Assembly (NCBI RefSeq): GCF_009914755.1 | Contig: NC_060931.1 | Reading direction: 5' to 3' (one strand) | DNA length: 64,000 nucleotides | DNA from: the human T2T-CHM13v2.0 reference genome, Homo sapiens | Shown here: piece by piece, positions 18,134-52,680 of the stretch | Layout of the letters: each line of letters begins with the position of its first letter | How positions within the stretch are numbered: position 1 is the first letter of the stretch | Notes under the pieces: generated by a model | What the model was told of the DNA's origin: nothing | The model's database searches: none | Seen by the model: the letters and a program-made list of their open reading frames with translations, nothing else | Translations under genes and position numbers: made by a program

Positions 18134-18439
<306 letters not shown>

Positions 18440-19080: not shown

Positions 19081-19459
<379 letters not shown>

Positions 19460-21220: not shown

Positions 21221-21796
21221 TCTTTATGGACTTATACAAATTTGATCACTAAGCATTTAAGATCTTAAAAAGCAACACTTGCTGACTGAGGTAGGAAGTT
21301 TCCATTTATTGATTATATAGATTGATTCCCTACACTGTGCCAAGTATTTCATCCTCAAATAATTATATGTATATTTTATCTGCAGGTAATTTGAAGCCCT
21401 GAATAACCTTTTGAGGCTACATAGCACTTAGTAGATGAAGGAGATCTCAGGATCATCTGACTCCAAAGTACTGGCTTGCTTTCTTATTCTATGTTCAGAA
21501 GCTCTGTTCTTCCTTCAGTTTTCTGTTTCATTTCTCAATGAGAATGATTTTAAAGCATGCTAGTTTTTATGTGCGTGCCCAGAGGCACTCTAGCAGAGAC
21601 ACAGTTACCCAGAAAAAGATGCGCATGTCTTCTTTATGATCCTCATATATCTATAAAGAAAAAAATCCTTACAAATACACATATATATTCCAATCTTTAC
21701 AATTCCAATAGTAGATACTCACATAGAGACAGAAGAAAGCATTCTTCCATTCACTAATGTGGACATGCACATAAGCATATTAGAAGGTGTCTGTGG

Positions 21797-22103
21797 GCCA
21801 GGTGTGGTGGCTCATTTCTGTAATCCCAACACTGAGAGGCAAAGGTGGGAGGATCACTTTCAGCTCAGGAGTTTGAGACCAACCCAGGCAACATGGTGAA
21901 ATGCCATCTCTACAAACAAACAACCAAACAAAAAAACAGGTGTGGTGGCAGATGCCTGTGGTCTCAGTTACTCAGGAGGCTGTGGTGGGAGGATCATTTG
22001 AGCCCAGTAGGTAAAGGCTGCAGTGAACTGTGATCGTGTGACAGACTCCAGCCTGGGTGACAGAGTGAGACCCTGCCTCAAAAAAAAAAAAAAAAAAAAA
22101 AAG
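21797..22103 (+). mobile_element. AluJ
   Basis: gggaggatcactt, ggaggatcatttgagccc, gagaccctgcctc followed by poly-A. Confidence 0.9.
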
Positions 22104-24840: not shown

Positions 24841-25479
24841 ACACCTGTAATTATTTTAAGTTTCAAAAGTAAAAATGCTCATTTTAGAATTTTTAATAAT
24901 ATAAAGAAGTAAAAAGAGAATTCAAAATTATCAATGACTTTATCTGGAGGTACTCATTGTACACTTGTTGGTATATGTTAGGGCACAGACAAGTAAATGT
25001 ATAGCAGCTGGAATCATCTAACTGCACCCCTGTTTTATAATCTTCTTTTCCTTATATTCTTCCCTCTTTTCCCTTTAGCAAAATAAAATAAATTTCCCTC
25101 ATAGACTCATGTATAACAGTCTGGTGATAATTTCCTTGGAATCACTCTGCATAGTTTGTCAATGTAGTTTTTGCCAATAGTAAAAAAAAAGCAAAAAGCA
25201 AAAAGCAGTACTCTCCCAAAGAGGAATTTTGGTACTCATATTTTTCTGCACTTCTGAAATGTGGAATGGAGCACAACATGGAGACCGTGTTGAGTGCTGT
25301 GGGGACAGACAAGAGACACAAACACTTTCTCCTTTTTGGTGGGTCAAAGAATGCTTACCTTCAGAAGGATGTGAGTTCTCAGCTGAGACCTGAAGTGTAT
25401 CTAGATCAGCTACAGTAGATTCATAAGGTTTGGAACCTGTAGGTTGGGAGAGGCAGGGAATTCTAAAGTCCCTCTGACC

Positions 25480-25720
25480 TCTGGGTCATTAATCACATCT
25501 CCTTTTCTGACCCTGACTCTCCTGTCTCCCTCTTATAAAATCTCTTGTGATTACACTGAAACCACCTGGAAAATCTAGTATAATCTACCTGTCTCAAGAC
25601 TCTTGACTTAGTCACATGTGCAAAATCCCTTTTTAGATGGAATATACCATATTTACAGGTTGTGAGAATTAAGCCATGAACATCTTAATTGGGTGGGGGA
25701 AGTTACTATTCTGCCTACTA
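25480..25720 (-). mobile_element. MLT1D-like LTR fragment
   Basis: cttgtgattacac...cacctgg...tcacatgtgcaaaatccctttt...attctgcctacta. Confidence 0.7.
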
Positions 25721-26331
25721 TGGTTCTGTATCATCAATCGAATCAATTCAACGGGGAGCTTATTACTTTTAATTTTATGCTGTCATTTCCTCATCTGTAA
25801 AAGGTAATAAGAGTTCTACAACAACTTAGGTTTGTTCTGAAGAGTAAATGCTTTGAAGGTTCTGGCACATATCAGATACTTAAGAAGCTATTATTATTGC
25901 AGCAAATAATATGATTTTACAAATACCCTCATGGAGTTAAAAATTACACCACCCACGTATATTGATGGAATGTGGTAGGACTTATGAGGCAATATATGAG
26001 AATTTAATAAGATATAATACCATAGTAATTTATTCTAGATACATATATACCCAAATTATGAATGATATAGTTTTTGAATTACCCTTGAAGAGTTATTAAT
26101 ATTTTAGCAACTCTAGAAGAAAATGATGAACATGTTTTTTGGAACATTAACTTATTTTCCCATCTTTGACAAGGTAAAGATATCTACATTTGCATATTTT
26201 CAGTCTACTTTTTTTCTCTATGATCAAGAAGATTCTTATGTTTTTCTATTGTGATTCTATATCCTCATCCACATCTAGTGAGTACCTGCTTTGTGTCTGC
26301 TATGCCTTTGGGCTTTTTGTAATGTAGATTT

Positions 26332-26622
26332 ATTTTTTTTTTGTAAGATGGAGTCTCTGTCACCCAGGCTGAAGTGCAGTGGTTTGATCTTGGCTTACTG
26401 CAACCTCCACCTCTTGGGTTCAAGTGATTCTTCTGCCTCAGCCTCCTGAGTAGCTGGGGTTACAGGTGCCTGCCACCACGCCTGGCTAATTTTTGTATCT
26501 TTAGTAGCGACGGGTTTTCACCCTTCCAACCAGGCTGGTCTTGAACTCCTGACCTCAAGTGATTCACCCACCTAAGCTTCCCAAAGTGCTGGGATTACAG
26601 GTGTGAGCCACTGCACCTGTCC
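26332..26622 (-). mobile_element. AluSx/Sz-like
   Basis: Full antisense dimer; TSD tgt(a/g)atgtag.ttt. Confidence 0.92.
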
Positions 26623-26709
26623 TGTGATGTAGTTTTAAGATAACAAATAGAGATAAAAACAAGGAGAGCATCATGAATTTTGGACAACAAATAGAAAGAG
26701 ACACACCCA

Positions 26710-26995
<286 letters not shown>

Positions 26996-28416
26996 AAAGA
27001 GACAAACACATAAATCGAGCATCATTGAAAAGGGCCTGCATACTCAAAAAAGAGTAGAAAGAATCGTGGCTAAAAAAAAACCAGTAGGAATTCAGAGTTG
27101 TAGGGGAGAGATTTTGAGGAAATCGGTTGTGATTCAAGGGAAAGATATTTCTAATGACAGAAGTATAAAATTTGATAAAGCTGTTCAGAACAAAGAGAAT
27201 ATGTTTCTTACCCTTTGACATTATCTGAGAGATGACAGTAAACAGCAATGTTTTTTTCATTACTTTCAGTTGCTAGATATTATTTTGTCCCATCCAACTC
27301 CATGCTTGGGCTGGCATGTGGGGCTTCATTTTTGTTTGAATTATACATCATCCAGTGGATATGTTATATTCTCTTCAAGTCTCATAAACCCATTGCATGT
27401 CATTCACACTCATCAAACCATTTGCAGTCCATCCGTCTTCTCCTCCAGCAATCTTTATCATTCCCTATATCTTTTTTTCTGAACAGAGAAACTGACCCTT
27501 CCTCTGTTTACGTTCACTTTTTCCAACTGTTCAGAAATATTAATCTCACCTTCAATCTACAAACATGTCCTCTAAACATACAACCATGTTTCCTTGTAAG
27601 CAGCTACCCTCATTTTCTCCCTTCTATAAACAAACTTTGTTAGAGAACCTACAAAACCACTTATTTTCTTTCATTTCTTATTTTCTAGTAAACTCACTTG
27701 GATATGATTTCTGTTTTTAATATGATAGACATGCACCTGCAATCGTTAAATCCAGTGATTGCCTTTTATTTAGTTAGGCTGCTCTATAGAATGATAACAT
27801 TGATCATGCTTTTCTTCCTTCACTGTAACACATTATTTTATTACCCACCCTTCAGCTCACTGATCATTGTCTTTCTGGCTTTCTTCCAGCCGTATCTCAA
27901 TAGTTGGTGCATCCCATGGTTTCATCTTTGCTCCTTAACTCATATAGACATGATTTGTGTGTGCTATTATTCTCTTATGCAGATTTTCTTAACAGCAATA
28001 GACATTCTTAAATAAGCAAAACTAAAAAGGCCAAAGTAAATTTGTCCCTAAAGTTTCCTGTGTTTCCTGTTTCATTAAATGAAGCCAATGACATTATTAT
28101 TCACGAGGTGTCCAAACACAAAAGCTCAAACATTTTTGAAATGCCTTCCTTCAACCTCGTATCAGTTGTTACCAAGTCATTCTTATTATTCTGCCTATGT
28201 TAAATATGAAATTACTTTCCTCCACTCCATAGCTCTATCAGTGCAGGCTTCTTTTCCCAATTGTCTCAGTTATCCCTGAACTGAGAGATCTCTTGTGATG
28301 TCTCATCCTCTATGTCTTCCTTTCCACAGATTTGAGCACAATATCCTCTACTTTAACACTTATTTCAAATATTGGACAGAAAAGAATGATACATAAGACC
28401 TTTACAATATGGCCAC

Positions 28417-28791
28417 TGATATGGATTAAATATTTCTGTCCCCCTTTTCCCAATTTTTATGTTGTGGTCCTAATCCCCAATGTGATAATGTTTGAAGGTG
28501 GGACCTTGGAGAGGTTGATTGGATTTGGATGAAGTCATGGGGATAGTGCTCCTGTAATGGGATTGGTGCATTATAAGCGGATGAGGAGACCAGAACTCTC
28601 TCTGGGAGATGTGAAGATGTAGTGAGAAGGTGACTGTGTATAAGCCAGGAAGAGGGCCTTTAGCAGAACCTGACCATTCTGGCACCCTGATCTTGGACTT
28701 CCAGTCTCCAGACCACTGAGAAATAAACATTCGTAGTTTAAGTTACCCAGTCTATGGTATCTTATTATATCAGCCTGAGAAAATTAATACA
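28417..28791 (+). mobile_element. MLT1A solo LTR
   Basis: TG...CA termini (tgatatgga...taataca); aataaa near 3' end; 5-bp TSD gccac/accac. Confidence 0.82.
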
Positions 28792-30249
28792 ACCACAAAT
28801 TCCTTTTCTTAATTTGCCAAGCCACATCTCATTTTTAACTATACTAACTTATTTTTTAAACATATGCAGAGCTGAGAGGTACCACTATTCAAATATCATT
28901 AAAAAGCTTTCTAAAGGCACACAAACGCATGAGTTCAGGCAGTGTACCACAACTGTAAATGCTGGAAAGAAGCTCTAATGGACAAAGCACTTGAGTACAG
29001 GCAGTAGCAAGAGGCTGGCTGAGTCTGTGACACTCCAGAGGCATGGCTGTAAACATTTGACAGCACTAATAGTGGCTCAGAAAGGGCTAACCACTGGCAA
29101 CAGTGGAAAAAAAATAGTTACTCCACATTTTTACAACTGACATTGCTATTTCTGAAACCTTCCTCTTCTTTCCCTTTCTCTATGTTGTAATAGGAATTCA
29201 GGTATTGACATGTCTCAAGTATGATTAATAAGTAATTCATGCAAGAAATATTCTATGAATATGAAAAATATTTGAGGGCAAAGAGTGATTACTTTTGTTC
29301 CCATTAGTCTCATAATGACAGCCTGTTCTGACATAAGTTAGCTCTGGCTAGTCTCAACCAAAATATTTTCAGGTACAGTTCATCTGAAGTTTTAAGTTAT
29401 TCTCAAATAGATGATATCATCTACAGTAGCATGCTCAAATACCGTAATACTCATTGTGTGGGGGAGCAATTAAAACTGAAGGTGATTCAGGTGAATATAT
29501 TGCTTGGCTTTAGAAACTGGAACTGCAAAATGGATTCTTAAGAATGTGAGTCTAGTAAAAGAAACGAGAATGAACACTGACAAATAAGAGATGAATAGTG
29601 GCAGAAAGAATTAGAAGTCATAATGATACTTTTAGAAAAGGAAATTAGAGCAGAAAAAAAAAAGTAACCCTAGCAACAAAAAGAACTGTAAACATTTTTA
29701 GAGATAGGAAGAAAGAAAAAAAATCATGGTAACTGAAAAAAAAAAAAAAATAGGTACTTTACATTAGAGGAGTGTATTTTTTACTAATATATTTACTCAC
29801 ACACACACTTAGAATAGGAAATCTATCCAACAATTCAGCAAAAGACAACAAATTATTTTAAGGAAGCCAAAAAGTAAAATAAAAAAATTCCGATTAACCT
29901 TCTTGGAAAAAGTATTCTAATATCAAAACTTTATTATTTTTTCTTTTTTACTAAAAAAACCTCTAGAGTTAGAAGTTAACCTTTAATTGCATAGTGTCAT
30001 TTTACATTCAGCATTACATAATTTGAATAGTCTTACTCAATTTTATAAGCTGACAATTATAAGGAGATTGCTTTTAAATGGCCTCAGGCTTTAACTAGGC
30101 TAGGATCCTCTTTGGTTTGGAAAGCACAACATCTCATTGAGCATTACCCAGGAATCTGATCATTATTTCAAAAAAAAAGAAATCTCATTTTTTATGGCCA
30201 GAGAGAATCAGATAGGAGAATTTCTGCATGAAAATGTAATTGTATCATC

Positions 30250-31260
30250 CAAGCTGATGAGGTGGAGGGGGAAAATGTAACCATTTGAAAGACGTTTTGG
30301 TTGTGTGTTACATGAAGCTGAACATAGACTTACCATACAATCCAGAAATCACACTCCTCGTTATTTACTCAATACTCAAGAAAGGGTTCAATTGGGCCCA
30401 AAGATGTAGAAGAATAAATGTGAAAACAGAATCGTGTCAACTATATTAAATTCCTAACATATATTCAATGCATTTAAAAAAACTCTCACAAATGAAATCC
30501 TGATACCAGATGCCTCCACTGGTGTATTCTTCCATTTATTTCTGAATAAATTACCCCGATCTTAAACAAACTCTTCTGAATTATAGGAAAATGGCTCTTT
30601 TTTATGAGGTCACCGCAATCTTGATTGTAAAATCTGACAAGGATATCACCCACTCTGTAATTCCAAAAGTTTCTCTCATGATATAGTTATAAAAATCCTA
30701 AACAAGATAACAAAGCAAACTCACAGAATGATTTAACATAAAAAATATGTCAATGCTATTTACCATAATAACTACAAAAAAGATTAAAAATGATTATCTC
30801 AAAATAAGTTTTTAAGATGCCTTTGCTGAATTCAATACCCATTCATAATTTAAAAACAATTAATAGTATGTTAGGTGTACAAAGAATTGTCTTTTATGAA
30901 ATAAAGACTGTCTGCAAAAATCTAAGAGCATTCATATTTGATGGTAAAATATGAAAACTTTCTTCCCTTCTGCCCTCTTTCTTTTCCCACTACTTCAGAT
31001 AGTGCACAAAGGAAAAATCACCCCTATCATTACTTTTGTTCTACATCTCACTATAGGGTTTAGCCAGGACAATATAACAAAAGAAACAAAATAAAACAAA
31101 TCAAACACAAAATAGAGAAAAGAAAAAAAGAAACAAAAGTAGAGATCATGTGCATAGAAAAGGAGAAAGAAAATTCTTATAATTTGCCTATCAATGGTTA
31201 TATAGTTAGAAAATAAAAAATCCATGAATTATAATAAATTTAATAAGATTGCTTTACATA
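30250..31260 (+). mobile_element. Old L1M ORF2 fragments
   Basis: acttaccatacaatccagaaatcacactcct; ccagatgcctccactggtg; aaaatctgacaagga; attcaatacccattcataatt; boundaries approximate. Confidence 0.6.
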
Positions 31261-33275
31261 CTGTTTTGCACAGTGCTTACAGATGCTTTACTAAGAAAGG
31301 TGAAAACAGCAAATACACAGATAAAACTCTGTGTCAGCATTTGGCAGCATTTAGCTGTCATGAGACTTCCTGAAGGTAAGACTTAAATCAGTAGTTCATG
31401 TAAACTGTGCTGGTGTGCAATGTTAATGCCACCCGTCTCACTGCCGGGTGAGTGCAACATGATTCTTTACAGGGCTGAGGACTGGAGTGCATTCTCGTAT
31501 TTTCAAATTAATGTTAATTCTATCTCATTTTAAATGTAGACATTTTATCACCAGCTTTTGTATCAGCAAGGGAGATTCTAGTCTTGGCAATAGCCTCAAG
31601 TCTGATTTCAACATTACCCAAATGATGGTGATGTTCACGCTTCTCATCAAATGAAACTTTCATCTGTTTTTAAAGCAATCTACAGAATATTTATCTCTCA
31701 GTTGCTTCATCAAAAAGAGCTCCCAAGAGGTGGTAAAAATTATTTTCGCACTATCACAGTGAGATTTAATGACATTTTAAATAAATAACAATATCCTGTT
31801 TACACATAATAAAGTATTACATTTATAGCGTTTTGGCTTAGATTTATAAAAATTCACTAAACCAGTGATGAAAATCAGGATTTATAATTGTTCTATTATT
31901 ATTTCTGAAACTATTTATGGTAGGAAAGGTTAGTGACTGCTGCTGGCACTGTGGTAGCAGAAAGTTAATGATTCTCTTGTCTTTTAGTGGAGTTAGACTG
32001 TAGTTCATGTGTAAAACAATACCTCCAGGCTGTGCTTTAAATGCTGAGCTCATTTATCTCTCATCAGTTAGGTAAATGAGATGCGGAAGTGGCTCCTGGT
32101 TTCTAAATAACTTTTTATACACTACTGAAAGCCTTAAAGGGTACTAAAATGCTTTCTCTTGTTAATGAAATTTCACTCATATAATCCATTCCTTAGTCTA
32201 GGAGACTCATTTTTTTTTTTTAAGCTTCCAGGCAGGCTGCTGATTTCACACTTATGCCAATGTTTATAAGTTCATTTTTATTACAGATTTACTTGTTTAT
32301 ATGAGGATATTTCCAAAATATATGTACCATAGTTATGTAAAGTGTTAACATTAGGGGTAGCTGAGTGAAAACTATGCTGTCTTTTCATCTCTTTGGTAAA
32401 TCTGAAATTATTCGAAAAGAAAAGATCTAAAAAATTACACACCAAAATACTCTCCTTTTACCCCTCAAAATAAGAAGATAGTTCTGATCAGCATATTTTG
32501 TACTTATTTTATTATTATAATGTGGAATGCTTTCAAATTTACGTGTCATGCATGTGTGACTAGCATAAGTTTTTAAATGTGTATTCAAGAAGTTTATAAA
32601 GATTGCCACAAAAATAATGCCTAGTAAGTAGTTACAGCCCAAACATTCCAACTGCCACTCTACATTTCTTTCTCACACATCACTATCAACACTATGATAG
32701 TTGAAGACCAAAAATAAATATCGTTGAGTGAATGTCTCTGTGTAATCTATAGTATGATCCTCAAGGGCCACCATTATTGTGCTGGAGAGAGCACACTGTC
32801 TTTCATTCACAGAAAGAAAATTAACTTTATTGCGGTCCCTCAACCTTTTAGTGTTTCCTATTCCACAGACAAAAACTCTCAGGCAGAGCAGAATTATTTT
32901 CTCTCCTTCACTTAGATAAATTCTAAGGACAAAGGAAATACTTACGAAATTGTTTTTGGATAGATCAGTGTGTGAGTATAAGTGATTGAGCTATACATTC
33001 AGAAAAAAGTAAGACACAATTTCCAATTTAAGACCTCATCTCTGTATGGAGGTTGTGATCCTTAATTTTGTGTGGCCTGGGCCATAGGAGGCTCCAGATA
33101 TTTGACTGAGCATTATTCTGGGTGTGTGGGTGAGGGTGAAGGTGTTTCTGGATAGGATTAACATTTGAATTGGTAGACTGAGTAAAGCAGATTACCCTCC
33201 CACACGTGTGTGACCCTCATGCAATCCACTGAAGGCGTTAATAGAAGAAAAAGTCTGAGAAAGGAGAATTTACTC

Positions 33276-33747
33276 TGTGAACCCCAAATATCTGAGAGAG
33301 GTATCAGTTAATTTAGATTGTTTATTTTGCCAAGATTGAAGATGCATGCCTGTGACACAGGCTTAGCAGGTCCTGATGACATGTGCCCAAGGTGGTCAGG
33401 GCACAGCTTGGTTTTATACACTTGAGGGAGACATGAAACATCAATTAAAATATGTAAGATGAACATTGGTTCAGTCTGGAAAGCTGGGACAACTCAAAGC
33501 AAAGGGGGGACAACTCACAGCAGGGAGGGGGCTTCCAGGTCATGGGTAGATAAGGGACAAATGGTTACATTCTTTTGAGTTTCTGATTAGCCTCTCCAAA
33601 GGAGGCAATCAACCATGCATTTATCTCAGTAAGAGGACTGGTTACTTTGAATAGAATGGGAGGCAGGTTTGCCCTAAGCAGTTCCCAGCTTGACTTTTCC
33701 CTTTTGCTTAGTGATTTTGGGGCCCCAAGGTTTATTTTCCTTTCACA
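33276..33747 (-). mobile_element. MER4A-type (ERV1) solo LTR nested in MLT2
   Basis: Reverse complement begins TGTGAAAGGAAAATAAACCTTGGGGCCCCAAAATCACTAAGC and ends GGGGTTCACA; AATAAA on - strand at 33321-33326. Confidence 0.88.
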
Positions 33748-33984
33748 GTTCTCTCTGCCTGACTATCTTCAAGTGGAGACAATAGTCTTCTCTTGCTATC
33801 AAAGTCAGAATCAGACTTAGACTCAGACTGGAATTCACACCATTAGCTTTCCTTGTCTCAGACCTTTAGGCTCCAGACTAGTTCGATGGCATTGGCTCTC
33901 CTAAGCCTTCAGATTGCTGATCTCAAGTTGTGGGACTTAAGTCTCCATAACTGCATAAGCCAATTCCTTATAAAAAAAAATCTC

Positions 33985-34005
33985 TGTGTGTGTGTATGTG
34001 TATGC

Positions 34006-34050
<45 letters not shown>
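33985..34050. repeat. Alternating pyrimidine/purine tract ending in (TG)19
   Basis: Read directly; pure TG at 34013-34050. Confidence 0.95.
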
Positions 34051-34051
<1 letters not shown>

Positions 34052-34206
34052 CAAGAGGTCCATAGATAGGGCTGGGTGTATGTGTTTCTATGTGTGTATA
34101 TATATTTATATGATTCTATTCCTCTGGAGAACCCAGACCAATACTGAGATGATTCATAATTAAGTTTAAATTAAAATAACTCTGAGCTTTTTTAGTATGT
34201 CATTTA

Positions 34207-34707
34207 TGTCAGGCCTCTGAGCCTAAGCCAAGCCATCGCATCCCCTGTGACTTGCACGTATATGCCCAGATGGCCTGAAGTAACTGAAGAATCATAAAAG
34301 AAGTAAAAATGCCCTGCCCCGCCTTAACTGATGACATTCCACTACAAAAGAAGTGTAAATGTCCGGTCCTTGCCTTAACTGATGATGTTCCACCACAAAA
34401 GAAGTGAAAATGGCCGGTCCTTGCCTTAAGTGATGACATTACCTTGTGAAAGTTCTTTTCCTGGCCCATCCTGGCTTCAAATCTCCCCCACTGAGCACCT
34501 TGCAATGCCCACTCCTGCCCGGCAGAGAACAACCCCCCTTTGACTGTAACTTTCCTTTATCTACCCAAATCCTATAAAACGGCCCCACCCTTATCTCCCT
34601 TCACTGACTCTCTTTTCGGACTCAGCCTGCCTGCACCCAGGTGATTAAAAGCTTTATCGCTCACACAAAGTCTGTTTAGTAGTCTCTTCACACCGACAGG
34701 CATGAAA
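34207..34707 (+). mobile_element. Solo LTR7 (HERV-H LTR) with three U3 repeat units
   Basis: TGTCAGGCCTCTGAG...CATGAAA; TATAAAA 34573-34579; ATTAAA 34644-34649; perfect 5-bp TSD ATTTA (34202-34206 and 34708-34712); no PBS follows. Confidence 0.96.
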
Positions 34708-35179
34708 ATTTAAATATATTCGAATGCTATGGGTCTAAGGTCTAAGATTGTTTTGGATTTTAAACCAAGGTTGAATTCCAATTTGGTCTTTGTTATGGTT
34801 TTCTTTGGAAAGGCGTTATGCCATTGAGTCAGTTAAAAGTGAAATTTACTCATAATCCTTGGTCAAGGGTTTTATAACCCTCTCATCTTTGAATTACTTA
34901 TAACTTACTTTAGAATTATTGTTCATCCTCTTCCCTTTCTTTTACATTATCCATGCTCCTCATATAACATAGCTATAATTAATGAGTTTTACCAAGTCTG
35001 TTTCCTGAGTCTGTAAATCCAGGGGGGCATATATTTCCATATAGCATCTAGTGTTCTAAAAATGCTTGTCTAGGCGATTGGGTTCCCACCTCAGCCATCC
35101 TGTTCCCTCATGGGATTCTGAAGTTATCATGTTTATAATTTACCATCATTTCAATTATAGTAGGTTTCATCACATCAGC

Positions 35180-37100
35180 TGTGATGGCATGGAGAAACAG
35201 TGTAAACCGGCAGTGTAAACAAGAATAGGGCATGTATGAGTAGTTGAGAACGGTGAATAGGAGTATCACTAGACAGAAGATAGTAGGGATGACAAGTTTT
35301 TTGGGGCACAGTCTAAGTTGGTCTGGTGTCTGGAATGAGACTGGGGCCTAATAAAAAGGAGCGTCTTTACAGGAGCTTAAATGGTCTGTACCCTGTAGCG
35401 TTCCGAGGACAGGCCTGAATTCTGAGAAGGGAAAGTGGTAAAAGTATTGTCCAGTCCTTTTTGGTGGCTGAGCTTGGTGAGGTGTGTTTTTAAAAGACCT
35501 TCAGTCCATTCTACTTTTCTTGAAGATGGAGGACCGTAAGGGATATAAAGATTTCACTGAATACTAAGAGCCTGAAAAACTGCTTGGCTGATTTGACTAA
35601 TAAAGGCTCATCTGTTATCAGACTGTATTGAGGTGGGAAGGCTAAACTGAGGAATTATGTCTGACAGAAGGGAAGAAATGACTGCGGTGGCCTTCTCAGA
35701 CCCTGTAGGAAAGGCCTGTACCTATCCAGTGAAAGTATCTACCTAGACTAAGAGGTATTTTAGTTATCTGACTCAGGGCATGTAGAGTAAAGCTAATTTG
35801 CCAGTCCTGGGTGGGGCAAATCCTCCAGCTTGATGTGTAGGGAAGGGAGGGGGCCTGAATAATCCCTGAGGAGTAGTAGAATGGCAGATGGAACACTAAG
35901 AAGTTATTTCCTTGAGGATAGATTTCCACGATGGAAAGGAAATGAGAGGTTCTAAGAGGCGGGCTAGTGGCTTGTACTATAGTATAACCTGCCTTTGCTG
36001 GTGTGTGGCGATTAGGCCTGGTGGAACCGTCATCAATAAATCAAGCATGATCAGGGTGAGGAACAGGAAAGAAGGAAATTTGGGGAAATGGGGTGAATGT
36101 CAGGTGGATCAGAGAAATACAGTCATGGGGGTCAGGTGTGGTATCAGGAATAATGTGGGAGGCCGGATTGAAGTCTGGGCCAGGAACAATGGTAATTGTG
36201 GGAGACTCAACAAAGAGTGAGTATAGCTGAAGGAGCCGGGAAGCAGAAAGTATATGCGTCAGGTATGAGGAAGAAAATAGATTTTGGAAGTTATGAGAAC
36301 TGTAGAGAGTGAGTTGAGCATAGTTTGTGATCTTGAGGGCCTCTAAAAGTATTAATGCAGTGGCAGCCGCTGCACGCAGACATGAGGGCTAGGCTAAAAC
36401 AGTAAGGTCAAGTTGTTTGGACAGAAAGGCTACAGGGTGTGGTCCTGGCTCTTGTGTAAGAATTCTGACCATGCTAACCATGCCTAGGAAGGAAAGGAGT
36501 TGTTGTTTTGTAGAAGGTGCTGGGGTTTGAGAGATCAGTCGGACAAGATTGGCAGGGAGAGCACGTGTGTTTTTATGAGAATTATGCCGAGATAGGTAAC
36601 AGATGAGGAAGAAATTTTGGCTTGATTGAAGTAATGGGGGCTGACTGTGAAGCTTTGCAGCAGTACAGCCTAGGTAATTTGCTGAGCTTGATGGGTGTCA
36701 GGGTCAGTCCAAGTGAAAGCGAAGAGAGGCTGGGATGAAGGGTGCAAAGGAATAGTAAAGAAGCATGTTTGAGATCTAGAACAGAATAATGGGTTATAGA
36801 GGCAGGTATTGAGGATAGGAGAGTATATGGGTTTGGCACCACAGGGTGGATAGGCAAAACAATTTGGTTGATAAGGCACAGATCCTGAAGTAACTTGTAA
36901 GTCTTGTCTGGTTTTAGGACAGGTAAAATGGGGAAATTGTAAGGAGAGTTTATAGGCTTTAAAAGGCCATGCTGTAGCAGGCAAGTGAAAACAGGCTTTA
37001 ATCTTTTTAAAGCATGCTGCAGGATGGGATATTGGCGTTGAGTGAGGTAAGGGTGATTAGGTTTTAATGAAATGGTAAGGGGTGCATGATCGGTCGCCAA
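35180..37100 (-). pseudogene. pol: HERV-H pol remnant (RT N-terminus, frameshifted and internally deleted, then RNaseH/IN fragments)
   Basis: QYPI..SPYNFPILPVLKPDKTYKLLQDLCLIN..VPNPYTLLS..YSVLDLKHA, frameshift to FFTIPLHPSSQPLFAFTWTDP; no YxDD segment visible between SPHYFNQA and SSSVTYLG. Confidence 0.9.
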
Positions 37101-37651
37101 GGAGGGAGTAGAGATATCTTATACTTGTGGGTTAGGGTGGGGGGATACAAGAGGAGGACGCAAAGGAGGCTTTGAATTGGGATGAAGGGCGGCAATGAGA
37201 TATAGCTGTAGTCCAGGAATAGTCAGGGAAGCAGATAATTTAGTTAAAGTGTCTCAGCCTAATAAGGTAACTGGGCAGGTGGAGATAACTAAAAAGGAGT
37301 GCTTAAAAGAGTATTGTCTAAGTTGGCACCAGAGTTGGAGAGTTTTAAGAGGTTTAGAAGCCTGGCTGTCAATACCCACAACAGTTATGGAGGCAAGGGA
37401 AACAGGCCCTTGAAAAGAAGGTAATGTGGAGTGGGTAGCCTCTGTATGATTAAGAAGGGGACAGACTTACCCTCCACTGTGAGTTACCCGAAGCTCGGCA
37501 TCTGTGATGGTCTAGGGGGCTTCCGAGGCGATCGCGCAGCGTCAGTCTTCAGCCGCTAAGCTGAGAAGATCTGGGAAGGAGTCAGAGAGCCTTGGGCCAG
37601 AGTTCCAGGGGCTCTGGGAGTGGCTGCCAGGTGAGTTGAACAGTCCGATTT

Positions 37652-38700
37652 TCAGTGGGGTCCCACACAGAAGGGACATGGCTTAGGAGGAATCCTGGGC
37701 TGTGGGCATTCCTTGGCCCCGTGGCCAGATTTCTGGCACTTATAGCAAGCTCCTGGGGGAGGAGGTTCTGGAGGAATGCCTGGCTGCTGCGCTTCAGGTG
37801 TTTGGAAGCTCTTGTGTGCTGGAGATGTGGCTGGGGTTTGTCTCACAGTGGAGGCAAGGAATTGCAACTTTTTTCTATTATTGTACACCTTGAAGGCGAG
37901 GTTAATTAAATCCTGTTGTGGGGTTTGAGGGCCGGAATTTAATTTTTGGAGTTTTATTTAATGTCGGGAGCAGATTGGGTAATAAAATGTATTTTGAGAA
38001 TAAGACGGCCTTTTGACTTTTTAGGGTCTAGGGCTGTAAAGTGTCTCAGGGTTGCTGCCAAACAAGTCATGAACTGGGCTGGATTTTTATATTTGATGAA
38101 AAAGAGCCTAAACGCTATCTGATTTGGGATAAAGAAAAAGGAGCATTAAGCTTGACTGTGCCTTTGGCTCCAGCCAACTTTTTAAGAGTAAATTGCTGGG
38201 CAGGTTGGGGAGGGCTAGTCATGGAATGAAACTGTAAGCTGGACCAGGTGTGAGGAGGGGAGGTGATAAAAAGATTATAGGGTGGAGGAGCAGAGGATGA
38301 GGAAGAATTGGGATCTAGCTCGGCCTGGAGAGGAGCAGCCTGGGGAGGAAGGGAGAGGTCAGATGGGTCTGTAGAAAAGGAAGATTAGAAAGACTCAGTG
38401 ACGCTTGGGGTTGGGACTGAGGGGACAGGCGGGAGGGAAAGAAGGAAGATTTGGGACGAGTTGCACTGGGCACAGAGACTAGGAACGGACTGATGTGTAA
38501 AAGAATGCCTGGACTTCAGGCACCTCAGACCATTTGCCTATTTTACGACAAGAATTATTTAGATTTTGCAGGATGGAAAAATTCAAAGTGCCATTTTCTG
38601 GCTATTTGGAACTACTGTCGAGTTTGTACTGGGGTCAAGCGGCATTGCAGAAGAAAATAAGGCATTTAGGTTTTAGGTCAGGTGTGAGTTAAAGAGGTTT
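37652..38700 (-). pseudogene. gag: HERV-H gag remnant including nucleocapsid CCHC knuckle
   Basis: ORF 37652-37888 PPPPGACYKCQKSGHGAKECPQP; upstream frame broken; 5' boundary approximate. Confidence 0.82.
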
Positions 38701-38779
38701 TAAGTTTTTGAGAACACAGGCCAAGGGAGTAGAAGGAGGAATGGAGGGTGGAAGGTTGCCCATAGTGAAGGAAGCAAGC

Positions 38780-39130
38780 CCAGAGAAAAGAGTAGAGACA
38801 CAGAGAAGGGGTGGGGGGTTCTTGCCCTCCAGAAAAGCAGAGAAAGGGTTGGGGCACGGAAATAAGGGATTGGGGCACAGAGATAAGAGGTTGGGGTGCG
38901 GAAATAAGGGATTGGGGTACAGAGATAAGAGGTTGGGGCGTGGAAATAAGCGATTGGGGGGTTCTTGCCCCCTAGGAAAGCGGGACTTGCCGCTAAGGGT
39001 GAAGGAGAAGGGGTTGAGGGGTACTTGCCCCTCTCCCAGAAAAGCAGAGAAGGGGTAGAGACAAGGAGAGAAGGGGTTGAGGTACTTGTCCCTTCCCCAG
39101 AAAAGAGGGACTTGCCGCTAAGGGTGAAGG
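38780..39130. repeat. HERV-H leader tandem repeats (about 21/42-bp ggggcacggaaataagggatt / ggggcacagagataagaggtt units; duplicated ccagaaaagc...gacttgccgctaagggtgaagga blocks)
   Basis: Read directly. Confidence 0.85.
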
Positions 39131-39583
39131 ACCAAGGCAGGCGTCCCTGCGTGGTCTGACACCCTTGAAACGTGTAAGTATAATCAGAGAGGTGTCCCTG
39201 CAGTGATTAAACACCAAGGGAAGGCTGCCTTCCCAGTCCGTGACTGGCGCCGGAGTTTTGGGTCCATGGATAAAACGTGTCTCCTTTGTCTCTCCCAGAA
39301 AATGAAAGGAATTGAAATGAAGAGAAGGGAGAGATTGAAGTGTAGCACCAAAATTGAAAGGAGAAAGAGGTTGAGGGATAGTGAGGGAGGTTGGAGAAGA
39401 GAGTAAAAAGAGGCCGCTTACCGGATTTGAAATTGCTGAGATGTTTCTTGGGCTGGTCGGTCTGAGGACGTGAGGTCGTAGGTGGATCTTTCTTATGGAG
39501 CAAAGAGCAGGAGGACGGGGGATTGATCTCCCAAGGGAGGTCCCCCTATCCAAGTCACGGCACCAAATTTCATGCGCGTCCAT
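38993..39583 (-). CDS. Candidate ESRG/HESRG-like HERV-H leader ORF, 196 aa from AUG (frame stays open further upstream into the LTR)
   Basis: MDAHEIWCRDLDRGTSLGRSIP...SNPVSGLF...PAPVTDWEGSLPLVFNHCRD...RPRRDACLGPSPLAASP...GASTPQPLLLHP matches my recollection of the ESRG protein; translation unproven. Confidence 0.35.
   Translation of the reverse strand: MDAHEIWCRDLDRGTSLGRSIPRPPALCSIRKIHLRPHVLRPTSPRNISAISNPVSGLFLLSSPTSLTIPQPLSPFNFGATLQSLPSLHFNSFHFLGETKETRFIHGPKTPAPVTDWEGSLPLVFNHCRDTSLIILTRFKGVRPRRDACLGPSPLAASPSFLGKGQVPQPLLSLSLPLLCFSGRGASTPQPLLLHP
39416..39424 (-). promoter_or_regulatory. HERV-H major 5' splice donor CCG|GTAAGC
   Basis: Plus strand gcttac|cgg; standard position about 145 nt after the LTR. 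Confidence 0.8.
39548..39565 (-). promoter_or_regulatory. Primer binding site for tRNA-His
   Basis: TGGTGCCGTGACTTGGAT, one mismatch to TGGTGCCGTGACTCGGAT, 2 nt after the LTR end. Confidence 0.93.
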
Positions 39584-40016
39584 GTGAAGAGACCACCAAA
39601 CAGGCTTTGTGTGAGCAACATGGCTGTTTATTTCACCTGGGTGCAGGCCGGCTGAGTCCGAAGAGTCAGCGAAGGGAGATAAGGATGGGGCCGTTTTATA
39701 GGATTTGGGTAGGTAAAGGAAAATTACAGTCAAAGGGGGTTTGTTCTCTGGCGGGCAGGAGTGGGGGTCACAAGGTTCTCAGTGGGGGTGATTTTTGAGC
39801 CAGGATGAGCCAGGAAAAGGACTTTCACAAGGTAATGTCATCACTTAAGGCAAGGACCGGCCATTTACACTTCTTTTGTGGTGGAATGTCATCAGTTAAG
39901 TTGGGGCAGGGCATATTCACTTCTTTTGTGATTCTTCAGTTACTTCAGGCCATCTGGGCGTATACCTGCAAGTCACAGGGGATGCGATGGCTTGGCTTAG
40001 GCTCAGAGGCCTGACA
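39568..40016 (-). promoter_or_regulatory. 5' LTR7 promoter of the provirus
   Basis: TATAAAA at 39694-39700 (-); two CACAAAAGAAGTG units; AATAAA in R. Confidence 0.93.
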
Positions 40017-42259
40017 GTAGGTACTGGTGGAATCACCTGACTTTTCTTATCTCCTTGCCTAAACATCCTTCTCAGGAATAAGAGCACCACAGGCCTGAGC
40101 TGAAGCCCAGAATCCAGAGCTAATCTGAGTGGGGTAGATGAACCTGTATCAGTAAGACATGAAATTAGAAACTAATGGCAGACAGGAAACTATGGGCTCT
40201 TGGACCAAGACGGACTTTCGAAAATGGCAAAACTAAATCAAAGATGAAGACAAAGGATAAAAATTAAAAGCTGACTTGGGTACAGCTACAGAGGACTTGC
40301 AATGACGTTCAGTGAGATTGATCAGAAAGCATCAGGGATGCATAAGAAGCTCATTCATTCAGAGATTCCCTGACAAAGGAATCCTCTGATAAGACACTTG
40401 GGCTTTTACCCATGAACATGGAAGAAGAGATAAGGTCTGGCTTTGAAAACGATTTTATTAAACACTGACCCTTCTAATATACCCAACAAGACCTAATTGT
40501 GCATGAATTCTAACTTGCGGAATGTTTTGTTCTTCAGAAGCCACAACATAAAGAAGTGAACATAAGTAAAATTTCAGGACAAGCAGTATCAAAAGTGTAC
40601 AGGTGTATATATAACTTTTTCATAGTTTTCCTTAGTTAAATATTAAGAAAAAAAGCAAGAGTTATATTTCCTTAAGCAGACAGTTTCTTTGACAATATAT
40701 TTTAATTAGTACAAGAATGGTAGAATATGATAAATATAGAAGATAATTTAGGCATAGAAACATGTTAAGTGTATCTAAAACTAATATTTATGAATTATTA
40801 ATTTAGTAAAATTTGTCACTGTGTTTAGGAATATTAAGCCATATTAAGTAGTATATCTTAAAGTTATTCACATATTCCAATAAGTATGAAGAGTTAGAAG
40901 AATATTGTTTAAAAATATAGATGGCAAAAATACTAAAGTTGCACCGTTATTGTAGTTTTGGAATACGGAATAGGAAAACAGCAATGTGAAATATTAGAGT
41001 TTATTTCAATGTTTTAAAGTCCTGCAATCTTCATTATGTAGCTATTAAAAAGCAATTTTTTGTTCATATTACTTTGACCATATCACCTTAGGCCTTCCAA
41101 CGATGTTTTCCTGCCAAGAAACAAATTAAGCATTTATTAGAGGTCACTAAGGCATCATTACAGGAGTAATTGCTCACTATAGGTTCTTGCCATTCGTTCA
41201 TTTATTACTCTCTCTGTCTCTTACAAGCCCTTTATAGAATCATGGATTTTTAATAAGTCTTGCACTCTGTGGTGATCTCAGGTTTGGCGTCGCTCATATA
41301 ATTTGTTTCCTTTTTGATTCTGACAGCTTGTTGTTTACAAAATGATAAGTTCTTCCTACAAGAAAGTCCATAAAATGGCCTGAAAGATGCTATAAAATTG
41401 CTAACACTGTAGAATATGAATTATTAACAATACGAATTCTTTGTCTTTTCTGTGACAATTACCTTCCTTCTTTTCTTTATCATCTTATAATTTCCAAATT
41501 ATAGGTAGATTATGTAGCTTTATAGTAAACCACAAGGCCATTCATAGGCTCATTCTGGAAAGTTTCTATACTTTCCATGGTATACCAATGTGGAAACTGT
41601 CCAACATGGTGCTCTCTCTACCCCTCACCAAAGGCCATGCCACTGTGGCTCAGACAAGTGCTTGGGAATTCCAGTGGGACAGGCACTAATAGTACTGACC
41701 CTAAAATAAAAACCACAAAATAACTAATTTCCTGATGCACCATTATATTCCCTTTCCACTTTTCTGAAAAGAAAACTCTGACTTTGCTTTCACATATAAG
41801 GTTGTTATTATGCAACTAATTTTTATATGAAAATGATCTCCTTATGAGATAGTCCAGCATCTTTTCATACAGATGTAAATAAATGTGGTAAAACTGTAGT
41901 TTACACTCTCATTTTCTAAAGCATTAGCAATATTGCATGATAAACAGTGTCATTTCATATAAATATTGTACTGTATAAAAATGATATTTTAATGACTTCC
42001 TCTAAATTTCTTGGAATATGAGACTAACTGCATTGTAAAAGTAATCCAAGCATAGACAAAGTAATGGTTTTATCATTAAGATTCTGTATCATACAGTACA
42101 AAGAAACTCTGTTGTTGTGTTTTGCATTTCAGAACATCACACAGTTGAATATTGGTATTATGCAGTTATGAATAGTGCCTAAATTTTCTCTTAAAAAGTC
42201 TGCTTTTCATTTTCAACCAGAAAACTAAATGTATGAGTATCACAACTTTCATTCAAATA

Positions 42260-50138: not shown

Positions 50139-50827
50139 TGAGAGGTGAAGCCAGCTGGACTCCCTGGGTTGAGTGCGGACTTGGAGAACTTTTCTGTCTA
50201 GCTAGAGGATTGTAAACGCACCAATCAGCACTCTGTAAAAATGCGCCAATCAGCGCTCTATGTCTAGCTAAAGGATTGTAAATGCACCAATCAGCACTCT
50301 GTAAAAATGCACCATCAGCACTCTGTGTCTAGCTAAATGATTGTAAATGCACCAATCAGCACTCTGTAAAAACGTACCAATCAGCACTCTGTGTCTAGCT
50401 AAAGGATTGTAAAATGGACCAATCAGCTCTCTGTAAAATGGACAAATCAGGTCTCTGTAAAATAGACCAATCAGCAGGATGTGGGTGGGGCCAAATAAGG
50501 GAATAAAAGCTGGCCACCCGAGCCAGCAGTGGCAAACTGCTTGGGTCCCCTTCCACACTGTGGAAGCTTTGTTCTTTCACTCTTCACGATACAATCTTGC
50601 TGCTGCTCACTCTTTGCATCTGCACTACCTTTAAAAGCTGTAACACTCACTGCGAAGGTCTGTAGCTTCAGTCCTGAAGTCAGTGAGACCATGAACCCAC
50701 CGGGAGGAACAAACAACTCCGTACACGCCACCTTTAAGAGCTGTAACACTCACTGTGAAGGTCTGCGGCTTCACTCCTGAAGTCAGCAAGACCAAGAACC
50801 CACTGGAAGGAACCAATTCCAGACACA
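50139..50827 (+). mobile_element. LTR12 (ERV9) solo LTR, short form
   Basis: TGAGAGGTGAAGCCAGCTGG...AATTCCAGACACA; tandem caccaatcagcactctg units; AATAAAAG TATA-equivalent at 50502; duplicated gctgtaacactcactg U5 repeats; TSD not clean. Confidence 0.93.
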
Positions 50828-52204: not shown

Positions 52205-52680
52205 TGTGACTCAGATAAGACTTTGAACTTTAGACTTTTGAGTTAATGCTGAAATGAGTTGAGACTTTGGGGGACTGTTGGGAAGGCATGATTGGTTTTG
52301 AAATGTGAATATATGAGATTTGGGAGGGGCCAGGGGTGCAATGATGTGGTTTGGCTCTGTGTCCCCACCCAAATCTCATCTTGTAGCTCCTGTAATTTCC
52401 ATGTATTGTGGGAGGGACCTGGTGGGAGATGATGGAATCATGCGGAAGGTCTTTCCCATGCTGTTCTCATGATAGTGTATGGGTATCATGAAATCTGGTT
52501 TTAAAAACAGGAGTTTCTCTGCGCAAGCTCTCTCTTTGCCTGCTGCCATCCATGTGGGATGTGACTTGCTCCTCCTTGCCTTCTGATTCATGATTGGGAG
52601 GCCTCCACAGCCATGTGGACCTGTAAGTCCAATACAGCTCTTTCTTTTGTAAATTGCCCAGTCTTGGGTATGTCTTTATT
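52205..52680 (+). mobile_element. THE1-int 3' end plus THE1B-like LTR (from 52342; last about 25 bp missing)
   Basis: gacttttgagttaatgctgaaatgagtt...gggaggggccagggg (PPT) then tgatgtggtttggctctgtgtccccacccaaatctc. Confidence 0.88.

What the first reader, a model, noticed from the sequence alone, without database searches (positions are those of the whole stretch)
34207..40016. Convergent LTR7 pair around a HERV-H that has no terminator: candidate sense/antisense and fold-back dsRNA unit
Seen: a + strand solo LTR7 (34207-34707) faces a - strand HERV-H 5' LTR7 (39568-40016). Both TATA boxes are intact, and the solo LTR sits about 460 bp beyond where the proviral 3' LTR should be. Each has its own TSD (ATTTA; GTAGG), so these are two independent integrations and not one inverted provirus. 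Known: LTR7 is a promoter active in pluripotent cells and the early embryo. Inference: unterminated HERV-H RNA would run into the antisense of the solo LTR, letting its 5' R-U5 (about 100 nt) pair with its 3' end. The solo LTR could also fire antisense through pol/gag, giving transcriptional interference, dsRNA, ADAR editing or small RNAs.
Basis: partly seen in the sequence, partly recalled or inferred. Interest (0 to 1): 0.8.

Follow-up and report, generated by a model that had tools for sequence, protein, structure and literature searches.

The report
Truncated HERV-H lncRNA promoter facing solo LTR
Two separate ancient retrovirus insertions sit tail to tail here; the younger has lost its terminator end and now starts an annotated non-coding RNA gene that runs backwards through the older one, an ordinary arrangement whose proposed double-stranded RNA role is possible on paper but untested.

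Summary
34207-34707 (+) is a 501-bp solo LTR7-type element flanked by ATTTA. 35165-40016 (-) is a HERV-H provirus with an intact 449-bp 5' LTR (39568-40016). It has no 3' LTR: about 0.9 kb is deleted, leaving 6-9 bp of the LTR end next to the GTAGG target-site duplication. The two LTRs belong to different lineages (91.5% identity over aligned bases, plus a 51-bp extra unit). Carter et al. 2022 already list both: the solo as 7u1, the provirus as 'truncated LTR7up1'.

The 5' LTR is the annotated promoter and first exon of lncRNA LOC101928254. Its start lies 30 nt after the TATA box, and it splices from the conserved HERV-H leader donor (39422) to 25436. The antisense solo LTR is therefore intronic. 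Fold-back of the 103-nt R-U5 onto it is strongly predicted for unspliced RNA (94 of 103 nt paired in the MFE), but the mature RNA cannot form it. In H1 ESC tables the solo LTR has no RNA or GRO-seq call and carries enhancer-type marks, so convergent firing lacks support. Longer, closer inverted Alu pairs lie in the same pre-RNA. This is an ordinary case of known kinds.

The parts
34202..34206 (+). Left copy of the 5-bp target-site duplication ATTTA of the solo LTR
   Evidence: sequence read directly
34207..34707 (+). Solo LTR of the HERV-H (LTR7) family, 501 bp, 7u1 lineage. It carries three 51-bp units each holding AAAAGAAG, TATAAAA at 34573-34579, an inferred start near 34603, and ATTAAA at 34644-34649.
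   Evidence: labelled 7u1/solo at hg38 chr7:125258828-125259326 in Carter et al. 2022 supp 1
34708..34712 (+). Right copy of the TSD ATTTA
34603..34707 (-). Distal arm of the predicted fold-back: the antisense of the solo LTR's R-U5 as it would appear in - strand pre-RNA (intron 1 of NR_110182.1)
35160..35164 (-). 3' copy of the proviral TSD (CCTAC on the - strand, GTAGG on the + strand)
35165..35173 (-). Stump of the deleted 3' LTR: ATGAAA (35170-35165) matches the LTR end; the three bases before it (35173-35171) are uncertain
   Evidence: compared with the LTR ends
35174..39567 (-). HERV-H internal region, degraded. A gag zinc knuckle lies in 37655-37957 (above the Pfam cut-off). A Gag_p30 fragment (37957-38145) and a protease fragment (37257-37466) fall below the cut-off. 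No RT, integrase or env domain was detected. The last ~450 bp of the internal sequence is missing.
39422..39670 (-). Exon 1 of lncRNA LOC101928254 (NR_110182.1): R-U5, primer-binding-site position and leader up to the HERV-H leader splice donor (G|GTAAG at 39422|39421)
   Evidence: hub annotation; the donor is conserved in 4 other HERV-H 5' ends
39568..40016 (-). 5' LTR (LTR7up1 type), 449 bp: two AAAAGAAG units, TATAAAA at 39700-39694, annotated start at 39670, AATAAA at 39632-39627
   Evidence: provirus labelled 'truncated, LTR7up1' in Carter supp 2
39568..39670 (-). Proximal arm of the predicted fold-back: the 103-nt R-U5 at the 5' end of the - strand RNA
40017..40021 (-). 5' copy of the proviral TSD (CCTAC on the - strand)
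25437..39421 (-). Intron 1 of NR_110182.1 (13,985 nt). It contains the proviral body, the 457-bp spacer and the antisense solo LTR.
   Evidence: hub annotation; GT-AG checked

Best explanation
[quoted passage not shown] The solo LTR (7u1 lineage) belongs to a subfamily that the literature dates to an older wave. A younger LTR7up1 provirus landed next to it. That provirus later lost about 0.9 kb at its 3' end by a simple deletion: the last ~450 bp of internal sequence and all but 6-9 bp of the 3' LTR. The target-site duplication was left in place.

The surviving 5' LTR acts as the promoter and first exon of the annotated lncRNA LOC101928254. Transcription starts 30 nt after the TATA box and passes the promoter-proximal AATAAA in R. 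With no 3' LTR and no poly(A) hexamer for the next 3.3 kb, it reads out of the provirus, through the solo LTR in antisense, and on for about 35 kb. Splicing from the conserved HERV-H leader donor (39422) to 25436 removes the proviral body and the solo LTR as part of intron 1.

The solo LTR most likely behaves as a NANOG-bound, enhancer-like element in primed pluripotent cells, not as a second promoter.

Shown: the anatomy, the TSDs, the deletion, the lineages, the splice-site sequences and the predicted pairing energy. Taken from annotation or literature: the transcript model, the chromatin/RNA calls and the subfamily ages. Inferred: that loss of the 3' LTR promotes read-through, the order of the two insertions, and that any R-U5 fold-back is confined to nascent or unspliced RNA and has no demonstrated consequence.
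For: - Anatomy and TSDs.
- Colinearity with a two-LTR provirus down to 35174, and absence of any third LTR copy.
- LTR lineages: 408 of 446 aligned bases identical, plus 58 gap columns. The solo falls in a supported clade (99/97) with 7 other ~500-bp LTRs; in that clade of 8, 7 have ATTAAA and 7 have three AAAAGAAG units. The solo's terminal branch is 0.058 against 0.02 for the 5' LTR.
- Nearest genomic relatives: 95-96% identity for the 39 other scored hits of the 5' LTR, against 83-93% for the 39 other scored hits of the solo.
- Published labels and ages: 7u1 solo and 'truncated LTR7up1'. Waves of 9-20 Mya (7u1) and 4-10 Mya (7up1) are stated in Carter et al., section read.
- The transcript start is 30 nt after the TATA box, and all four introns are GT-AG.
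- The leader donor is conserved in L002, L009, L013 and L016. These are 4 of 15 other loci searched; the others matched nothing within 6 substitutions and may be solos or 3' LTRs.
- No - strand AATAAA/ATTAAA between 37002 and 33736.
- H1 ESC calls for the solo: RNA 0, GRO 0, H3K4me3 0, NANOG 1, H3K4me1 1, H3K27ac 1. Robust ESC transcription is restricted to 7up.
- RefSeq 'enhancer' features cover both LTRs (hub annotation).
Against: - No expression data for this provirus were seen. It is absent from Carter's locus table (supp 1 has no entry in 1252597xx-1252646xx). The tissue source of NR_110182.1 is unknown to me.
- The 3' end of the RefSeq model has no poly(A) hexamer in the 50 nt upstream, so the model may be incomplete, and a second RefSeq isoform was not shown.
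- The FASTA header for the solo LTR in Carter supp 4/5 carries the tags 'h3k4me3' and '7up'. This conflicts with the table value h3k4me3_mnase 0 and the label 7u1.
- Carter's re-masking (supp 2) calls the first 182 bp of the solo LTR7up2, so its subfamily label is not clean.
- 7u1 shares the AAAAGAAG SOX2/3 insertion that is necessary for 7up activity, so promoter competence in some embryonic stage cannot be excluded.
- The order of the two insertions rests on subfamily ages and branch lengths, not on orthologous loci in other primates.
Confidence: 0.8

Rival explanations
1. One reading: both LTRs fire in the same cells. Convergent transcription gives up to 5 kb of perfectly complementary sense/antisense RNA (34603-39670), with transcriptional interference, ADAR editing or small RNAs.
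For: - Both TATA boxes are intact, and the solo keeps three AAAAGAAG units, the motif necessary for 7up activity.
- NANOG and H3K27ac calls sit on the solo LTR, and an 'h3k4me3' tag appears in its FASTA header.
- RefSeq enhancer features lie over both LTRs (hub).
- A + strand lncRNA gene (LOC101928283) already spans the whole window as intron (hub), so + strand RNA over the provirus may exist without the solo promoter.
Against: - The solo LTR is scored RNA 0, GRO-seq 0, chimeric transcript 0, KLF4 0, SOX2 0, H3K4me3 0 in H1.
- The 7u1 subfamily is largely NANOG-bound (85%) but is grouped with loci lacking active transcription.
- No + strand transcript starting here is annotated (hub).
- + strand AATAAA hexamers at 35350, 35599 and 36035 could end such RNA early.
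Confidence: 0.1
2. Intramolecular fold-back only: in nascent or intron-retaining - strand RNA, the capped 5' R-U5 (39670-39568) pairs with the antisense solo R-U5 (34707-34603). This loops out the proviral body and has a measurable effect, such as A-to-I editing of exon 1, altered use of the 39422 donor, or nuclear retention.
For: - Cofold energy is -160.5 kcal/mol against -26.0 and -28.9 for the separate arms.
- 94 of 103 5' nt pair with 34603-34707 in the MFE of the 5521-nt RNA.
- The distal arm is transcribed about 9 kb before the exon-2 acceptor, so both arms coexist in the nascent RNA (coordinates from the hub).
Against: - The arms are 4.9 kb apart, 81% identical, with a longest exact run of 15.
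- An MFE of a 5.5-kb RNA ignores co-transcriptional folding, proteins and helicases.
- The annotated mature RNA lacks the distal arm.
- Nothing marks the pair as selected. The juxtaposition is near chance expectation, and better inverted Alu pairs lie in the same unit.
Confidence: 0.12
3. One provirus whose 3' LTR was inverted or displaced: the solo LTR is the missing 3' LTR.
For: Only the proximity (457 bp) and the absence of a 3' LTR in place.
Against: - The solo LTR has its own matching 5-bp duplication, ATTTA, on both sides.
- The proviral TSD CCTAC sits directly after a stump of the true 3' LTR end.
- The two LTRs differ by 38 substitutions and 58 gap columns, including a lineage-specific 51-bp unit and ATTAAA against AATAAA. 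By contrast, the reference provirus's own two LTRs pair as sisters (96/92) in the tree.
Confidence: 0.01

Closest known systems
HERV-H/LTR7-driven chimeric lncRNAs of human pluripotent cells (LTR7up class; Carter et al. 2022, PMC8912925; review PMC12228294)
   Same: - An LTR7up1-type 5' LTR with TATA box and both AAAAGAAG units.
- The start of an annotated lncRNA lies in R.
- The conserved HERV-H leader donor splices to non-viral downstream exons.
- The review describes such chimeric lncRNAs as capped, spliced and polyadenylated (passages read).
   Different: - Expression of this particular locus in pluripotent cells was not seen in any table I could open.
- The provirus is of the 'truncated, one-LTR' class. 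That class is common: about 802 such entries against about 735 two-LTR entries in Carter supp 2.
SPARCS and 'SPARCS-like' antisense LTR configurations (Canadas et al. 2018 as cited in PMC13735202; passages read)
   Same: An LTR lies antisense inside a host transcript, so complementary RNA could form if both strands are transcribed.
   Different: - SPARCS are in 3' UTRs of interferon-inducible genes, with shown bidirectional transcription and dsRNA.
[quoted passage not shown]
- Here the antisense LTR is in intron 1 and so is absent from the mature RNA.
- Here the host promoter is itself an LTR of the same family, which adds an intramolecular option.
Inverted-repeat Alu pairs in pre-mRNAs and UTRs as ADAR/MDA5 substrates (recalled; the papers listed were seen as listings only)
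   Same: Two copies of one repeat family lie in opposite orientation within a single transcription unit and are predicted to pair.
   Different: - The transcribed LTR arms are shorter (about 103 nt against about 300 nt) and far apart (4.9 kb).
- The same unit holds Alu-like inverted pairs of 266-316 bp at 80-86% identity, two of them only 97 and 661 bp apart. These are the more likely dsRNA source.

Membership tests
HERV-H provirus (LTR7 / HERVH-int) | LTR of about 450 bp, bounded TG...; homologous to many genomic LTR7 copies | tested here: met
   The other 39 of 40 scored genomic hits are full length at 95-96% identity, from 2827 first-look candidates.
HERV-H provirus (LTR7 / HERVH-int) | Internal region colinear with other HERV-H proviruses, with gag/pro remnants | tested here: met
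   92.8% over 4935 columns to L009. zf-CCHC scores 23.6 bits against a cut-off of 20.8; the Gag_p30 and RVP fragments are below their cut-offs.
HERV-H provirus (LTR7 / HERVH-int) | 5-bp target-site duplication at both ends | tested here: met
   CCTAC at 40021-40017 and 35164-35160 on the - strand.
HERV-H provirus (LTR7 / HERVH-int) | Two LTRs (complete provirus) | tested here: not met
   No 3' LTR; only a 6-9 bp stump remains. Listed as 'truncated' in Carter supp 2.
HERV-H provirus (LTR7 / HERVH-int) | Primer-binding site complementary to tRNA-His | not tested
   An 18-nt stretch follows the LTR + TT at 39565-39548. That it matches tRNA-His is recalled, not tested.
LTR7up1 subfamily (Carter et al. 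2022) | Block 2b with the 8-bp AAAAGAAG (SOX2/3) insertion | tested here: met
   AAAAGAAG at LTR positions 90 and 140; the motif is defined in the section read.
LTR7up1 subfamily (Carter et al. 2022) | Assignment by the authors' re-masking or phylogeny | tested here: met
   chr7:125259793-125264636 C 'truncated LTR7up1' in supp 2. The LTR is not in their tree or table (supp 1).
LTR7up1 subfamily (Carter et al. 2022) | Transcribed in ESC (true of only 33% of 7up loci) | not testable with these tools
   The locus is absent from supp 1, and no RNA data are on hand.
7u1 subfamily (solo LTR) | Placement in the authors' 7u1 clade | tested here: inconclusive
   Supp 1 and supp 4 label it 7u1. Supp 2 re-masks its first 182 bp as LTR7up2, and the header tag says '7up'. 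In my own tree it sits in a separate supported clade of ~500-bp LTRs, but I had no labelled reference sequences.
[quoted passage not shown] | Antisense ERV located in the 3' UTR of the host transcript | tested here: not met
   The antisense LTR lies in intron 1 of a lncRNA (hub annotation).
[quoted passage not shown] | Interferon-inducible bidirectional transcription and detected dsRNA | not testable with these tools
   No expression or dsRNA data are available.
Inverted-repeat dsRNA substrate within one transcript | Both arms are present in the same RNA molecule | tested here: inconclusive
   True for the primary transcript implied by the gene span 39670-4958, not for the spliced NR_110182.1 (hub).
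Inverted-repeat dsRNA substrate within one transcript | Arms predicted to pair more stably than competing local structure | tested here: met
   ddG about -106 kcal/mol; 94 of 103 nt paired to the distal arm in the MFE.

The most novel reading that the evidence does not exclude
In cells where the LTR7up1 promoter fires, the capped R-U5 of the nascent lncRNA snaps back onto the antisense 7u1 LTR 4.9 kb downstream. This closes the whole proviral body into a loop. The roughly 100-bp imperfect helix next to the cap would then tune use of the leader donor, attract ADAR, or hold the RNA in the nucleus. If so, same-family LTR pairs would form a self-recognising class of RNA switches peculiar to ERV-promoted lncRNAs.
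Probability: 0.07. Interest if true: 0.5.

Novelty: new member of a known kind. Interest (0 to 1): 0.2.

Why it matters
If the fold-back or convergent transcription were real, it would be a concrete single-locus case for asking how ERV-promoted lncRNAs in human pluripotent cells avoid or use dsRNA sensing. As the evidence stands, the value is modest. The locus is a clean worked example of how a HERV-H that lost its 3' LTR became the promoter and first exon of a 35-kb lncRNA gene. It also shows that 'LTR7' promoter activity cannot be assumed for every LTR7-type copy: the facing solo LTR belongs to a lineage that the literature describes as bound by NANOG but not transcribed in ESC.

Tried and rejected
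- **Third LTR copy or diverged 3' LTR.** I looked in the 457-bp spacer and the whole window and found none.
- **Single rearranged provirus.** Rejected on the TSDs and LTR lineages.
- **Coding capacity.** 40 stop-free stretches of at least 35 aa on the proviral strand were scanned against Pfam. Only one domain passed its cut-off (zf-CCHC). Casein, Atrophin-1 and Msb1 hits are weak chance matches.
- **Locus-level expression in print.**
  - 'LOC101928254' gave 1 paper, an ATAC footprint list with one passing mention.
  - 'NR_110182/LOC101928283/NR_110188' gave 9 papers. All hold LOC101928283 only, and by their titles most are GWAS, assembly or clinical-genetics papers; these were seen as listings only.
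  - The Gemmell 2019 supplements hold no 'chr7' string and none of the coordinates tried.
  - The Kelley & Rinn 2012 supplements hold no match on chr7 at my estimated hg19 coordinates. That estimate assumes a constant hg19-hg38 offset, and one file was cut when stored.
  - Expression status is therefore left open.
- **HERVH + inverted + dsRNA + LTR7 search.** It gave 12 papers, none about LTR7 inverted pairs by title. I read passages of only one of them (PMC12228294); it does not discuss antisense or fold-back HERVH RNA.
- **duplexfold shuffle control.** It gave -69 +/- 4 kcal/mol for shuffled targets against -161 observed. The control used mononucleotide shuffles and looks generous, so I rely on the cofold and MFE results instead.

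Full report
**1. What is there**

34207-34707 on the + strand is a 501-bp LTR that begins TGTCAGG and ends CATGAAA. It is flanked on both sides by ATTTA (34202-34206 and 34708-34712). On the - strand, 40016-39568 is a 449-bp LTR of the same family. It is followed by TT, an 18-nt stretch at the primer-binding-site position, and leader sequence.

A blastn of each LTR against the whole window (word size 7) found only the LTR itself, the other LTR and the solo's own internal repeat at E < 1e-6. There is no third copy and no 3' LTR. Both LTRs are ordinary members of a large genomic family, with 2827 and 2898 first-look candidates in the window's own genome. Of the 40 hits scored for each, the 39 other than the query were 95-96% identical to the 5' LTR and 83-93% identical to the solo.

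**2. The provirus and its missing end**

I compared the window with a two-LTR HERV-H of the same genome (L009, fetched). The window is colinear at 92.8% over 4935 columns, from the first base of the 5' LTR (40016) down to 35174. That point corresponds to about 450 bp before the reference's 3' LTR.

At the break the - strand reads ...CAGCTGAT / GTG ATGAAA / CCTAC / TATAATT. ATGAAA matches the last six bases of the LTR (compare). CCTAC matches the 5' flank (40021-40017). An 11-mer of this kind within 10 bp of the break has a chance probability of about 2e-6.

The provirus therefore integrated whole, made a GTAGG/CCTAC duplication, and later lost about 0.9 kb: the last ~450 bp of internal sequence and all but 6-9 bp of the 3' LTR. 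Corrected coordinates:
- TSD at 35160-35164 and 40017-40021
- LTR stump at 35165-35170 (perhaps to 35173)
- 457-bp spacer to the solo LTR

The body is degraded. Of 40 stop-free stretches of at least 35 aa on the proviral strand, only a gag zinc knuckle passes its Pfam cut-off (37655-37957). Gag_p30 and protease fragments fall below the cut-off, and no RT, integrase or env domain appears.

**3. Two insertions, two lineages**

The LTRs share 408 of 446 aligned bases (91.5%) and differ by 58 gap columns. The main differences are:
- an extra 51-bp unit in the solo, giving three AAAAGAAG units against two
- a 4-nt insertion just after the start-site position
- ATTAAA against AATAAA in R

In a tree of 19 LTR copies the solo sits in a supported clade (99/97) with seven other ~500-bp LTRs. 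In that clade of 8, 7 carry ATTAAA and 7 carry three AAAAGAAG units. The solo has the longest terminal branch there (0.058, against 0.02 for the 5' LTR). The reference provirus's own two LTRs pair as sisters.

The supplements of Carter et al. 2022 (PMC8912925) already list both elements. hg38 coordinates are about the window coordinate plus 125,224,621.
- The solo is chr7:125258828-125259326, +, '7u1'.
- The provirus is chr7:125259793-125264636, C, 'truncated, LTR7up1'.

The sections I read place 7u1 in a 9-20 Mya wave and 7up1 in a 4-10 Mya wave. The likely order, inferred only, is solo lineage first, provirus second, deletion last.

The labels are not entirely clean. The authors' re-masking calls the first 182 bp of the solo LTR7up2, and its FASTA header carries the tags '7up' and 'h3k4me3'.

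**4. What the 5' LTR does**

The hub's RefSeq table puts exon 1 of lncRNA LOC101928254 (NR_110182.1) at 39670-39422. The start is 30 nt after the TATAAAA of the 5' LTR. The exon runs through R-U5 and the leader to a G|GTAAG donor, and all four introns are GT-AG.

The same donor sequence, within 6 substitutions, is present in 4 of the 15 other loci I held (L002, L009, L013, L016). The rest may be solos or 3' LTRs. It is therefore the family's leader donor. Exon 2 lies at 25436-25359, so intron 1 (13,985 nt) contains the proviral body, the spacer and the solo LTR in antisense.

On the - strand there is no AATAAA or ATTAAA between 37002 and 33736. Together with the missing 3' LTR, this fits read-through out of the provirus. 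One-LTR proviruses are common: about 802 entries against about 735 two-LTR and about 1817 solo entries in Carter supp 2.

**5. The dsRNA idea**

The transcribed arms are the 103-nt R-U5 (39670-39568) and the antisense of the solo's R-U5 (34707-34603).
- They match in 87 of 107 columns, with a longest exact run of 15.
- Cofolding gives -160.5 kcal/mol against -26.0 and -28.9 for the separate arms.
- In the MFE of the 5521-nt unspliced RNA, 94 of the first 103 nt pair with 34603-34707.

Pairing is thus thermodynamically plausible, but only in nascent or intron-retaining RNA. The annotated mature RNA lacks the second arm.

The unit is also not special as a dsRNA source. Among the 39 inverted pairs found in the window, many are 266-316-bp repeats whose dimeric sub-threshold hits to Metazoa_SRP are the pattern expected of Alu. 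Two of these pairs lie inside this transcription unit only 97 bp (26334-26617 / 26714-26998) and 661 bp (18134-18429 / 19090-19397) apart.

**6. Convergent firing**

In the H1 ESC table the solo LTR is RNA 0, GRO-seq 0, chimeric transcript 0, KLF4 0, SOX2 0 and H3K4me3 0. It is NANOG 1, H3K4me1 1 and H3K27ac 1. The paper states that strong ESC promoter activity is restricted to 7up, while 85% of 7u1 loci bind NANOG without evidence of active transcription.

This reads as enhancer-like, in line with the RefSeq 'enhancer' features over both LTRs (hub). No + strand transcript starts there in the annotation, and + strand AATAAA hexamers at 35350, 35599 and 36035 could end such RNA early.

On the other side, 7u1 shares the AAAAGAAG insertion needed for 7up activity, and the header tag 'h3k4me3' conflicts with the table. 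The section I read on embryonic expression does not mention 7u1. A + strand lncRNA gene (LOC101928283) spans the whole window as intron (hub). Antisense RNA over the provirus could therefore arise without any solo-LTR promoter.

**7. Chance and comparison**

With Carter's element counts and uniform placement, about 1.8 solo LTRs within 1 kb of a provirus end are expected genome-wide. About 0.23 are expected inverted within 500 bp of a 3' end. One such pair is therefore unremarkable.

The closest known things are:
- HERVH/LTR7up-driven chimeric lncRNAs
- SPARCS and 'SPARCS-like' antisense LTR configurations, counted in thousands but defined in 3' UTRs or last exons rather than introns
- inverted Alu pairs as ADAR/MDA5 substrates (recalled; listings only)

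No paper on this locus's function was found in the searches, and none on LTR7 inverted pairs in the search.

**8. Verdict**

The anatomy is confirmed and well explained. It is a truncated LTR7up1 HERV-H serving as lncRNA promoter and first exon, reading through an older, independently inserted antisense solo LTR that lies in its first intron. The dsRNA/interference reading is a legitimate but untested hypothesis. It is weakened by the splicing pattern, by the ESC calls on the solo LTR and by better competitors in the same RNA. Interest is low to modest.

Noticed in passing
window 34010-34050: A (GT)n microsatellite lies about 160 bp upstream of the solo LTR.
   Followed up: no
window 21723-21909 (exon 4 of NR_110182.1) and 21797-22100: The exon overlaps an Alu-like repeat (sub-threshold dimeric Metazoa_SRP hits). 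This is probably Alu exonisation in the lncRNA.
   Followed up: partly
window 4958-5010: The annotated 3' end of NR_110182.1 has no AATAAA or ATTAAA in the 50 nt upstream, so the transcript model may be incomplete at its 3' end.
   Followed up: no
window 26334-26617 / 26714-26998 and 18134-18429 / 19090-19397: Close inverted Alu-sized pairs (about 81% identity, gaps of 97 and 661 bp) lie inside the same - strand transcription unit. They are stronger candidate dsRNA formers than the LTR pair.
   Followed up: partly
window 4810-5279 / 52210-52679: An inverted pair of about 487 bp at 74% identity, of an unidentified repeat family. One arm overlaps the last exon of the lncRNA.
   Followed up: no
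window 50195-50326 / 50326-50458: A tandem direct duplication of about 132 bp at 87% identity.
   Followed up: no
Carter et al. 2022 supplements, entry chr7:125258828-125259326: The annotation of the solo LTR is inconsistent. The table says 7u1 with h3k4me3 0, the FASTA header tags say '7up' and 'h3k4me3', and the re-masking calls the first 182 bp LTR7up2.
   Followed up: partly
L007 (G000:C16:65874234-65877686), second hit at locus position 2818: A second, more diverged LTR7-like copy (435 bp, no TATAAAA, one AAAAGAAG) lies about 870 bp from another LTR7 copy. This is another close LTR7 pair elsewhere in the genome.
   Followed up: no
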